Virus genome (UHGV): UHGV-0301654
Source of the DNA: a virus
DNA length: 10,290 nucleotides
Reading direction: 5' to 3' (one strand)
The notes under the pieces are model-generated. The model was not told the origin of the DNA. It saw nothing but the letters and a program-made list of their open reading frames with translations, and did not search any database. The position numbers were made by a program, and so were the translations under genes. This document shows, in pieces, positions 481 to 1,425 of this stretch (position 1 is the first letter of the stretch; each line of letters opens with the position of its first letter).

Positions 481-1425
481 ACGGTAAATCAGGCTTCTGG
501 CGCATTACAGAAAAACCAGAACGGCGCAGATATTCCGGGAAAAGATACCTTCACCAAAAACATTGGTGCCTGCCGCGCATATAGCGCATGGCTGAATATT
601 GGTGGCGATAGTCAGGTCTGGACAACTGCGCAATTTATTTCGTGGCTGGAGAGTCAGGGGGCATTTAACCATCCTTACTGGATGTGCAAAGGCTCATGGG
701 CTTATGCAAATAATAAGGTTATTACAGATACAGGTTGCGGAAATATTTGTCTTGCAGGTGCTGTGGTGGAAGTTATTGGCACTCGCGGCGCAATGACCAT
801 ACGCGTTACTACGCCGAGCACGTCCAGCGGTGGCGGAATTACTAACGCTCAATTCACTTATATTAATCATGGTGATGCTTACGCTCCTGGCTGGCGACGA
901 GACTACAACACGAAAAACCAGCAGCCTGCATTTGCTTTAGGGCAAACAGGACGCAGGGTCGCAAATGATAAAGCTGTTGGCTGGAACTGGAATAGCGGTG
1001 TTTATGATGCAGATATCAGTGGTGCATCGACATTAATCCTCCACTTCAATATGAATGCGGGGAGTTGCCCTGCTGTACAGTTCCGCGTGAATTACAGGAA
1101 CGGCGGTATTTTTTATCGTTCAGCGCGTGATGGTTATGGCTTTGAAGCTAACTGGTCAGAGTTTTACACCACAACACGCAAACCCTCTGCGGGGGATGTT
1201 GGTGCATATACGCAGGCAGAATGTAACTCAAGGTTTATTACAGGTATTCGCCTTGGCGGTCTGTCATCTGTTCAGACATGGAAAGGCCCCGACTGGTCTG
1301 ACAGGTCAGGTTATGTCGTTACGGGTTCAGTTAACGGAAACCGTGCTGAATTAATTGATACAACTCAGGCAAGGCCAATTCAGTATTGCATTAATGGGAC
1401 GTGGTATAACGCGGGGAGTATTTAA
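481..1425 (+). CDS. tail-fibre variable C-terminal domain (Sv), not currently joined to a constant part
   Basis: Frame is open from the crossover site (TAA at 460..462 just precedes it) to the stop at 1423..1425. The first ATG is only at 682, as expected for an exon-like variable segment. It starts TVNQASGALQKNQNGADIPGKD and ends RPIQYCINGTWYN, a motif shared with the opposing variable domain. Confidence 0.75.
   Translation, partial: TVNQASGALQKNQNGADIPGKDTFTKNIGACRAYSAWLNIGGDSQVWTTAQFISWLESQGAFNHPYWMCKGSWAYANNKVITDTGCGNICLAGAVVEVIGTRGAMTIRVTTPSTSSGGGITNAQFTYINHGDAYAPGWRRDYNTKNQQPAFALGQTGRRVANDKAVGWNWNSGVYDADISGASTLILHFNMNAGSCPAVQFRVNYRNGGIFYRSARDGYGFEANWSEFYTTTRKPSAGDVGAYTQAECNSRFITGIRLGGLSSVQTWKGPDWSDRSGYVVTGSVNGNRAELIDTTQARPIQYCINGTWYNAGSI

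What the first reader, a model, noticed from the sequence alone, without database searches (positions are those of the whole stretch)
508..537. Shared 30-bp joint ([12 protein letters not shown]) between the invertible Sv and the lambda-type stf
cagaaaaaccagaacggcgcagatattccg at 508..537 matches 9455..9484 in stf at 26 of 30 positions. The two fibre genes are otherwise unrelated at this point, and the match lies exactly at the boundary between shaft and tip in both. It looks like a conserved linker used as a module-exchange point for tail-fibre tips.
Basis: seen in the sequence. Interest (0 to 1): 0.35.

Follow-up and report, generated by a model that had tools for sequence, protein, structure and literature searches.

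The report
Conserved tail-fibre joint used for tip swapping
The 30-base match is real and encodes a short conserved peptide found where the shaft meets the tip in many enterobacterial phage tail fibres, and related genes do swap tips at it, but this is an example of long-known tail-fibre mosaicism inside a decayed prophage.

Summary
508-537 and 9455-9484 match at 26/30, the only such pair in the window (about 1e-4 expected by chance), and the flanks at the same offset are at chance level.

The first copy lies 9 codons inside the silent half (S'-type) of an invertible segment 88% identical to the phage Mu G segment. The second lies in a lambda-type side tail fibre gene, at the end of its last Phage_fiber_2 repeat.

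The peptide L-x-K-[N/D]-QNGADIP-[D/G/N]-K-x-x-F-x-x-N-[I/L]-G recurs in hundreds of Enterobacterales phage and prophage fibres. In 175 unique contexts from viral contigs, 47 upstream and 59 downstream DNA families combine in 76 ways, and similarity breaks pile up at both edges of the 30-mer. The same tips occur behind lambda-type shafts and behind invertase crossover sites. The module-exchange reading is therefore supported.

Corrections:
- In this window the stf tip has been removed by a rare 1740-bp in-frame deletion that starts one codon after the motif.
- The invertase crossover site is a separate joint 25 bp upstream of the motif's first (Leu) codon.
- The true homologue of the stf copy is a copy in Mu's constant part, which this window lacks.
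- Synonymous sites vary freely, so selection acts on the peptide.

The idea is already established and the P1 record annotates this patch. Interest is low to moderate.

The parts
508..537 (+). Copy 1 of the 30-mer (QKNQNGADIP), inside the silent S'-type variable part
505..567 (+). Full 21-codon conserved element in Sv' (LQKNQNGADIPGKDTFTKNIG)
   Evidence: L, P, K, F, N, I/L and G are conserved at positions the search pattern did not select
9455..9484 (+). Copy 2 of the 30-mer ([10 protein letters not shown]) in the lambda-type stf, directly after the last Phage_fiber_2 repeat
9485..9490 (+). Junction of a 1740-bp in-frame deletion in stf (GAT|ATT). About 580 codons of the distal fibre are missing and only the last 42 codons follow
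   Evidence: Comparison with the full-length relative L002:11022-14288. The junction is contiguous in only 2-3 of 5426 complete E. coli genomes
455..480 (+). Left invertase crossover site (gix/pix type); 1 mismatch to the Mu gix sequence
3508..3533 (-). Right invertase crossover site, inverted partner; 2 mismatches to Mu gix
481..1425 (+). Sv' variable tail-fibre part with no start codon of its own. Near-identical to phage Mu/D108 S' (PDB 8ju3, residues 175-488). In this orientation it sits next to the invertase remnant and a stop codon in the crossover site precedes it
1428..1961 (+). U'-type tail fibre assembly gene
   Evidence: Pfam Caudo_TAP, E 2e-36
1990..2517 (-). U-type tail fibre assembly gene
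   Evidence: Pfam Caudo_TAP, E 7e-38
2521..3684 (-). Mu S / P2 H-type variable part joined to a roughly 50-codon remnant of a P2-H-type constant part (..AAVIEYLGLQE). The N-terminus is missing, so this is a pseudogene
209..424 (-). Truncated serine invertase (Pin/Gin family), first 72 codons only
   Evidence: Pfam Resolvase, E 5e-18, profile positions 2-73 of 145; annotated as a 64-aa recombinase in L001
8183..9613 (+). Lambda-type side tail fibre gene, truncated at its N-terminus by fusion to a portal gene remnant and carrying the internal deletion
   Evidence: Pfam phage_tail_N covers only profile positions 77-134
9613..10188 (+). Tail fibre assembly gene (tfa) of the lambda-type fibre
   Evidence: Pfam Caudo_TAP, E 3.5e-44

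Best explanation
The 30-mer encodes the core of a conserved joint peptide, L-x-K-[N/D]-Q-N-G-A-D-I-P, followed by [D/G/N]-K-x-x-F-x-x-N-[I/L]-G. In a large family of Enterobacterales phage tail fibres (Mu S and S', P1/P7 S, D108, lambda-type Stf of E. coli prophages and many others) it sits between the proximal shaft and the distal receptor-binding module.

Because the peptide is kept by selection, otherwise unrelated fibre genes share a 30-60 bp patch of roughly 80-100% identical DNA. Inferred step: recombination within or at the edges of this patch, most plausibly short-homology recombination by host or phage recombinases, gives in-frame shaft-tip chimeras. These survive because the joint lies at a module boundary.

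In this window both copies are passengers in a dead prophage. One is in the unexpressed half of a Mu-G-like invertible segment whose invertase and constant part are truncated. The other is in an stf whose tip has been deleted.

Shown here: the conservation of the motif, the combinatorial flanks, the position of the breakpoints, and the sharing of tips between fibre types. Inferred: the recombination mechanism and the structural role of the peptide.
For: - Significance of the match.
- Identity of the two genes: Sv' is Mu/D108 S'. Window 210-3533 is 87.8% identical to the Mu G segment plus the gin 5' end. The stf copy follows a PF03406 repeat that ends at 'LQK' and aligns to Mu Sc residues 109-173, which carry their own motif copy.
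- Breadth: more than 600 pattern matches in IMG/VR. There are 221 occurrences in 201 loci, with unselected positions conserved. In GTDB species genomes, 105 of 125 pattern hits carry the extended motif, nearly all in Enterobacterales.
- Combinatorial flanks: 7 upstream and 23 downstream protein homology clusters, with one upstream cluster joined to 21 downstream clusters. At DNA level, 47 upstream and 59 downstream clusters form 76 combinations.
- Breakpoints, protein level: 36% of 7712 protein HSPs end within 5 residues of the motif end.
- Breakpoints, DNA level: for pairs with the same upstream and different downstream family, 26 of 62 cluster triples break at +29..+34, and 18 of them exactly at the last base of the 30-mer. 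For pairs with the same downstream and different upstream family, 13 of 40 break at -4..+2.
- Direct examples: the tip 'DKKLFLRNIGTTNSTTMSF..' lies behind an stf shaft in L151 and behind crossover-site leaders in L014 and L052, at high nucleotide identity (>=85% by the clustering criterion; few mismatches in the printed alignment) starting at the 30-mer. The stf-type tip 'DKDRFLSNINVYSKGEVD..' occurs inside Mu-, P1- and P2H-type invertible contexts.
Against: - The samples were retrieved with the exact pattern K[N/D]QNGADI, so the core's invariance is by construction. The samples are also dominated by E. coli prophages, so clusters are not independent events.
- Breakpoints cannot be resolved inside the patch. 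A crossover anywhere within it is scored at its edge.
- Breakpoint mapping was ungapped and anchored on the motif.
- Synonymous sites vary freely (56 distinct 30-mers in 76 combinations). There is no sign that the DNA itself is a dedicated signal, and many pairs (median 24/30) may be too diverged to recombine efficiently.
- In the GTDB sample, mostly Photorhabdus and Xenorhabdus, the main break is at +53..+66, the centre of the crossover-site-like NLG|L. That points to invertase-mediated exchange there.
- No experiment or inspected structure shows that the peptide is a neutral linker.
Confidence: 0.7

Rival explanations
1. The exchanges are made by the Gin/Cin/Pin/Min invertases at their crossover sites (Sandmeier's proposal). 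On this view the motif is only a passenger: it is the conserved end of constant parts that happens to abut crossover sites, and it is not itself the joint.
For: - In Mu Sc and many other fibres the motif runs straight into F-x-x-N-L-G-L-x-E-T-V, the peptide encoded by the crossover site.
- Twelve of 40 upstream breaks fall on the crossover site.
- In GTDB genomes, downstream breaks peak at +53..+66, the centre of the crossover site.
Against: - The lambda-type stf has no crossover site. Only two such sites exist in the window, at 455-480 and 3508-3533. Yet stf shafts carry the same tips as invertible cassettes, with similarity starting at the 30-mer.
- In the phage sample the modal breaks are at the edges of the 30-mer, 25-60 bp from the crossover centre.
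- In P1 the motif lies about 640 bp inside Sv', far from cix.
- Both mechanisms probably operate at adjacent joints.
Confidence: 0.2
2. The motif is only a conserved structural element of a common ancestral fibre. The flanks have diverged beyond recognition and no exchange has taken place at the motif.
For: Synonymous sites in the motif vary freely, as expected for old peptide-level conservation. The two copies in this window share nothing recent on either side.
Against: Flanks that are at least 85% identical at DNA level on one side are joined to unrelated DNA on the other, in 76 different combinations and in both directions. Divergence alone cannot produce this.
Confidence: 0.07
3. The 26/30 match is a chance match or a composition artefact.
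For: None beyond the shortness of the match.
Against: Expected 1.1e-4 such pairs in the window; the best of 20 shuffles was 23/30. The same peptide recurs in hundreds of fibre genes.
Confidence: 0.01

Closest known systems
Phage Mu G segment (S/U and S'/U' tail-fibre cassettes inverted by Gin), with the related P1/P7 C segment and e14 P segment
   Same: Window 210-3533 aligns in one piece to Mu gin-5'/S'v/U'/U/Sv at 87.8% identity. The two crossover sites differ from Mu gix by 1 and 2 bases. The 47-aa stretch around the motif is 100% identical to D108 S' and 98% to Mu S'. The P1 RefSeq record already annotates this patch as 89% identical to Mu 34919..34989.
   Different: The invertase is cut to 72 codons. 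The constant part is a roughly 50-codon remnant of the P2-H type (AAVIEYLGLQE), not Mu's (…RLAKDRNGADIPNKPLFIQNLGLQE). The constant-part copy of the motif that Mu has just before gix is therefore absent here. The element lies in a lambdoid prophage remnant next to bio/ybhB, not in a Mu genome.
Lambda-type side tail fibre Stf of E. coli lambdoid prophages (StfR/StfQ-like)
   Same: It has a phage_tail_N N-terminus, an Ala/Ser-rich shaft, a Phage_fiber_2 repeat, then the motif. The C-terminal ...[31 protein letters not shown] and the downstream tfa are also present.
   Different: The N-terminus is fused to a portal remnant, and 580 codons between the motif and the last 42 codons are deleted. By my recollection, phage lambda's own Stf has a different sequence at the equivalent point (KAVKVVMDETNRKAPL...); I did not check this here.
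Recombination between conserved motifs in T-even distal fibre and adhesin genes (Tetart et al. 1996, 1998, as cited in PMC3157838), and horizontal transfer of fibre segments among Mu, P1, P2, lambda and T4 (Haggard-Ljungquist 1992; Sandmeier 1992, 1994, as cited in PMC3945230)
   Same: Short conserved motifs embedded in hypervariable fibre genes coincide with the junctions of natural chimeras.
   Different: The motif and the phage groups differ. The original papers could not be read here, so I cannot say whether this exact peptide was named in them.
Engineered chimeric fibres fused at the last stretch of identity (lambda-P2 STF and gpJ chimeras, PMC11338833; P2-S16 homology-based chimera, PMC9594776)
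   Same: The design principle is the same one that nature appears to use at this motif.
   Different: Those fusion points are at other positions or motifs. No engineered fusion at this motif was found in the searched literature (one search found no paper containing 'QNGADI').

Membership tests
Gin/Cin/Pin-type invertible tail-fibre segment | Two 26-bp crossover sites in inverted orientation bounding the segment | tested here: met
   455-480 (+) and 3508-3533 (-), with 1 and 2 mismatches to Mu gix and none expected by chance. Inverted repeat of 38 nt, 92% complementary.
Gin/Cin/Pin-type invertible tail-fibre segment | Two opposed pairs of variable fibre part plus assembly gene inside the segment | tested here: met
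   Sv'-tfa on the + strand and tfa-Sv on the - strand. Collinear with the Mu G segment at 87.8% identity.
Gin/Cin/Pin-type invertible tail-fibre segment | Intact adjacent serine invertase gene | tested here: not met
   Only 72 codons remain, covering Resolvase profile positions 2-73 of 145, and they are followed by a tfa remnant. The element is a defective relic; inversion would need an invertase supplied in trans.
Gin/Cin/Pin-type invertible tail-fibre segment | Complete constant part (Sc) with a start codon reading into the segment | tested here: not met
   About 50 codons of Sc remain upstream of the crossover site. It is annotated 'missing N-terminus' in the near-identical locus L001.
Invertase crossover site (is the 30-mer itself such a site?) | Match to the 26-bp site made of two 12-bp inverted half-sites around a 2-bp core | tested here: not met
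   Only the two sites at 455-480 and 3508-3533 match with up to 3 mismatches. By my manual comparison (not a tool result), the stretch after the 30-mer in Sv' keeps 9 of 12 bases of the left half-site and 3 of 12 of the right.
Conserved-motif joint for tail-fibre module exchange | A short motif shared by genes that are otherwise unrelated around it | tested here: met
Conserved-motif joint for tail-fibre module exchange | Similarity breakpoints between related genes concentrate at the motif | tested here: met
   Partly replicated in GTDB genomes, where the main break is at the 3' end of the 21-codon element.
Conserved-motif joint for tail-fibre module exchange | The same module is found in different backgrounds on either side | tested here: met
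   Alignments.
Conserved-motif joint for tail-fibre module exchange | Recombination at the motif shown experimentally, and chimeras shown to be functional | not testable with these tools
   Needs phage crosses and adsorption assays.
Pfam PF03406 Phage_fiber_2 repeat | The motif is preceded by, and continuous with, a Phage_fiber_2 repeat | tested here: inconclusive
   Met for the stf copy and for the Mu Sc copy (the repeat ends at L-x-K; E 7e-22 and 1.5e-18). Not met for the Sv' copy at 508-537, which is preceded by the crossover-site peptide and ETVNQASGA.

The most novel reading that the evidence does not exclude
The 21-codon element could be a near-universal plug-and-play adaptor across Myoviridae-type (Mu, P1) and Siphoviridae-type (lambdoid) fibres. 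Its two adjacent joints would serve two different recombination systems: short-homology recombination at the QNGADIP core, and serine-invertase crossover at the NLG|L part. Invertible cassettes would then have arisen by capturing tips already bounded by the motif. If so, any tip bounded by the motif could be predicted, and engineered, to work on any shaft that ends with it, given its cognate Tfa.
Probability: 0.25. Interest if true: 0.5.

Novelty: already known. Interest (0 to 1): 0.25.

Why it matters
It gives a sequence-level, quantified example of how phage host-range modules are reshuffled between unrelated fibre architectures. It also points to a natural fusion point, the Pro codon of QNGADIP, that could guide the design of chimeric receptor-binding fibres. 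For this window itself it matters little, because both genes are pseudogenes in a prophage remnant.

Tried and rejected
- Short-peptide protein search: a 47-aa query in the protein database returned only 7 short fragments and cost one of three searches. I used tblastn against phages and DNA-pattern scans instead.
- Biased locus retrieval: the search for related loci ranked by similarity to the first sequence and returned mostly Mu-S'-type contexts. The degenerate DNA pattern scan gave the less biased sample.
- Literature: full-text search for 'QNGADI' and for the fusion motifs I recalled from memory (MDETNR, GAGENS, ADAKKS) found nothing relevant. The classic papers and the P1 genome paper are not held.
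- Catalogued domain: neither NCBIfam nor Pfam has a model covering the motif itself. PF03406 stops at L-x-K.
- Dedicated DNA signal: rejected because synonymous positions vary freely.
- Crossover site: the idea that the 30-mer is itself a crossover site was rejected.
- Relic half-site: a possible relic crossover half-site at the start of the stf-type tip (L002:12449-12460) is one of six 2-mismatch matches in 17 kb where about one is expected. It is too weak to use.
- Structure prediction: not attempted, because monomer models of trimeric fibres would not settle the structural role.

Full report
**Observation**

Both are in frame, encoding QKNQNGADIP and [10 protein letters not shown]. This is the only same-strand pair of 30-mers in the window with at least 26 matches. 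About 1e-4 such pairs are expected from base composition, and 20 block shuffles never exceeded 23/30. At the same offset the flanks are at chance level: 3/15 upstream and 12/30 downstream.

**What surrounds the two copies**

The window is a decayed lambdoid prophage next to bio/ybhB, the position of the lambda attachment site.

- *Left part.* Positions 210-3533 align in one piece, at 87.8% identity, to the phage Mu G segment plus the 5' end of gin.
  - A serine invertase is truncated to 72 codons (209-424, minus strand).
  - Two gix/pix-type crossover sites lie at 455-480 and 3508-3533.
  - Inside the segment are an S'-type variable part (481-1425), two opposed tail-fibre assembly genes, and an S/P2-H-type variable part joined to a roughly 50-codon remnant of a constant part (2521-3684, minus strand).
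  - The S'-type part is near-identical to Mu/D108 S' and to the solved chain 8ju3.
  - In the present orientation it is the silent half, because a stop codon inside the crossover site precedes it.
  - The 30-mer starts 28 bp after the crossover site, which is 9 codons into the variable part.
- *Right part.* Nu1, terminase A, W and a portal fragment are fused by deletion to a lambda-type stf (8183-9613), which is followed by tfa.

**The stf is internally deleted**

A full-length relative (L002:11022-14288) reads ...[13 protein letters not shown]|KDRFLSNINVYSK... and then about 580 more codons before ...AHAHTVG|[19 protein letters not shown]... The window joins the two marked points. This is a 1740-bp in-frame deletion with 2-3 nt of microhomology. 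The contiguous junction occurs in only 2-3 of 5426 complete E. coli genomes. What follows the motif in the window's stf is therefore a deletion scar, not a tip. In the undeleted form the resemblance to Sv' runs about ten residues further: DKDRFLSNI against GKDTFTKNI.

**What the motif is**

- In stf, and in Mu's own constant part, the motif follows directly on a Phage_fiber_2 repeat, whose Pfam match ends at L-x-K. No Pfam or NCBIfam model covers the motif itself.
- Mu S has a first copy in its constant part (residues 145-173, ARLAKDRNGADIPNKPLFIQNLGLQ), immediately before the gix-encoded NLGLQETVN. Mu S' then has a second copy (residues 177-203) just inside the variable part.
- The stf region aligns to the constant-part copy at 66 bits. 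That copy is therefore the true counterpart of the stf motif. This window lacks it, because its constant-part remnant is of the P2-H type (AAVIEYLGLQE).

**Breadth**

- tblastn found the region in Mu, D108, SfMu, P1, P7, D6, several Yersinia and Salmonella phages, and lambdoid 'side tail fiber' genes. In some of these, only the 26 residues around the motif match.
- Pattern scans found more than 600 matches in viral contigs.
- In species-representative genomes, 105 of 125 pattern hits also carry residues the pattern did not select (a hydrophobic residue at -4, F at +11, N at +14). Nearly all are in Enterobacterales such as Photorhabdus, Xenorhabdus, Morganella, Pectobacterium, Serratia and Salmonella. 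About 18 of the other 20 hits look like chance matches and two are near-variants of the motif; I estimated roughly a dozen chance hits for a pattern this degenerate.
- The consensus is L-[QAE]-K-[ND]-QNGADIP-[DGN]-K-x-x-F-x-x-N-[IL]-G.

**Test of the module-exchange idea**

- *Protein level.* Among 118 unique contexts with 100 residues on each side, the flanks form 7 upstream and 23 downstream homology clusters. One upstream cluster is joined to 21 downstream clusters. Of 7712 pairwise HSPs running through the motif, 36% end within 5 residues of its C-terminal end.
- *DNA level.* The 175 unique contexts give 47 upstream and 59 downstream clusters (at least 85% identity over at least 200 of 300 nt), in 76 combinations.
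- *Breakpoints.* Coordinates count from the first base of the Leu codon, so the 30-mer spans +3 to +32. I counted each cluster triple once.
- Pairs with the same upstream but different downstream DNA break at +29..+34 in 26 of 62 triples.
  - Pairs with the same downstream but different upstream DNA break at -4..+2 in 13 of 40 triples, and at the crossover site (-51..-39) in 12 of 40.
- *Examples.* Alignments show this directly. One crossover-site leader is followed by four unrelated tips that diverge at the Pro codon. One stf shaft is followed by five or six tip types, including S'-like ones. One tip (DKKLFLRNIGTTNSTTMSF...) lies behind an stf shaft in L151 and behind crossover-site leaders in L014 and L052, with DNA similarity starting at the 30-mer. 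The stf-type tip (DKDRFLSNINVYSKGEVD...) occurs inside Mu-, P1- and P2H-type invertible contexts.

**Caveats**

- The samples were ascertained with the exact core pattern and are rich in E. coli prophages.
- The breakpoint method is ungapped.
- Crossovers inside the near-identical patch cannot be resolved and are scored at its edge. That is nonetheless what a shared homology patch predicts.

**DNA signal or peptide?**

Synonymous positions vary freely. There are 56 distinct 30-mers among the 76 combinations, and all four codons are used at Gly, Ala and Pro. Pairs unrelated on both flanks share a median of 24/30 bases, so 26/30 is typical. Selection therefore acts on the peptide, and the DNA patch is a by-product.

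**A second joint**

In many fibres the motif runs into F-x-x-N-L-G-L-x-E-T-V, the peptide encoded by the invertase crossover site. In the genome sample the main downstream break is at +53..+66, the centre of that site. The element therefore carries two adjacent joints: the QNGADIP core, and the invertase crossover site. Only the first can explain exchange with stf genes, which have no crossover site. It also fits P1, where the motif lies about 640 bp inside Sv'.

**Comparison with what is known**

- Horizontal transfer of fibre segments among Mu, P1, P2, lambda and T4, and Sandmeier's proposal that invertases drive it, are cited as well documented in PMC3945230.
- Engineers fuse fibres at the last stretch of identity (PMC11338833; PMC9594776).
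- The P1 RefSeq record annotates this very patch as 89% identical to Mu 34919..34989.
- I could not read the 1992-1994 papers. No searchable paper contains 'QNGADI', so whether this exact peptide has been named as a joint remains open.

**Verdict**

The phenomenon is already known in kind, and in this window both copies sit in pseudogenes.

Noticed in passing
window 9485-9490 (compare L002:12376-14165): In-frame 1740-bp deletion in stf that starts one codon after the motif and ends 42 codons before the stop, with 2-3 nt of microhomology (GAT|A). The contiguous junction is present in only 2-3 of 5426 complete E. coli genomes.
   Followed up: yes
window 7785-8213: The portal gene (lambda B-like) is truncated and fused to the N-terminal region of stf. 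All head-maturation and tail genes between them (about 4-6 kb or more in relatives such as L002) are missing.
   Followed up: partly
window 92-171 and 10100-10179: An 80-nt inverted repeat, 93% complementary. The left end of the window holds the 3' remnant of a tfa gene in the opposite orientation to the intact tfa at the right end. In relatives, both abut the same diguanylate cyclase gene (L001, L002), which suggests an inversion or a replacement history at this attachment site.
   Followed up: partly
Mu L201:4690-4830 (minus strand), L016, L126; PDB 5yvq/8ju3 residues 145-203: In Mu, and in some viral contigs, the motif occurs twice, 32 codons apart, flanking the crossover site: once at the end of the constant part and once at the start of S'. 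The window keeps only the second copy.
   Followed up: yes
window 3470-3500 (minus strand); Mu S variable part: The other variable part (S/P2-H type) starts ETVNRARNAVQKN--GDTLSGGLTF. This looks like a degenerate version of the same element (ETVNQASGALQKNQNGADIPGKDTF), so the motif may be a diverged repeat unit common to both cassettes.
   Followed up: no
L002:12449-12460: TGTTTACAGCAA at the start of the stf-type tip (NVYSKGE) resembles the right half of the crossover site (10/12). It lies 2 nt out of register with the usual NLGLQE reading frame. It is one of six such 2-mismatch matches in 17 kb where about one is expected, so this is weak.
   Followed up: partly
GTDB loci L203-L281 (e.g. L246, L254, L255, L278): Photorhabdus and Xenorhabdus genomes carry many copies of the motif, often two per 8-kb stretch and on opposite strands. 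This would fit multi-cassette invertible fibre loci.
   Followed up: partly
window 8300-9300: The stf shaft is a long Ala/Ser/Thr-rich region built of imperfect direct repeats (families of 26-45 nt, 60-88% identical).
   Followed up: no
window 5059-5115: A 26-nt inverted repeat (85% complementary, 5-nt loop) just upstream of the Nu1-like gene, in the region where a lambdoid cos/terminator would be expected.
   Followed up: no
P1 NC_005856 32225-32941 (L322): In P1 the motif lies about 640 bp inside Sv' and is not adjacent to cix. The RefSeq record annotates it as a 76-bp patch 89% identical to Mu.
   Followed up: yes
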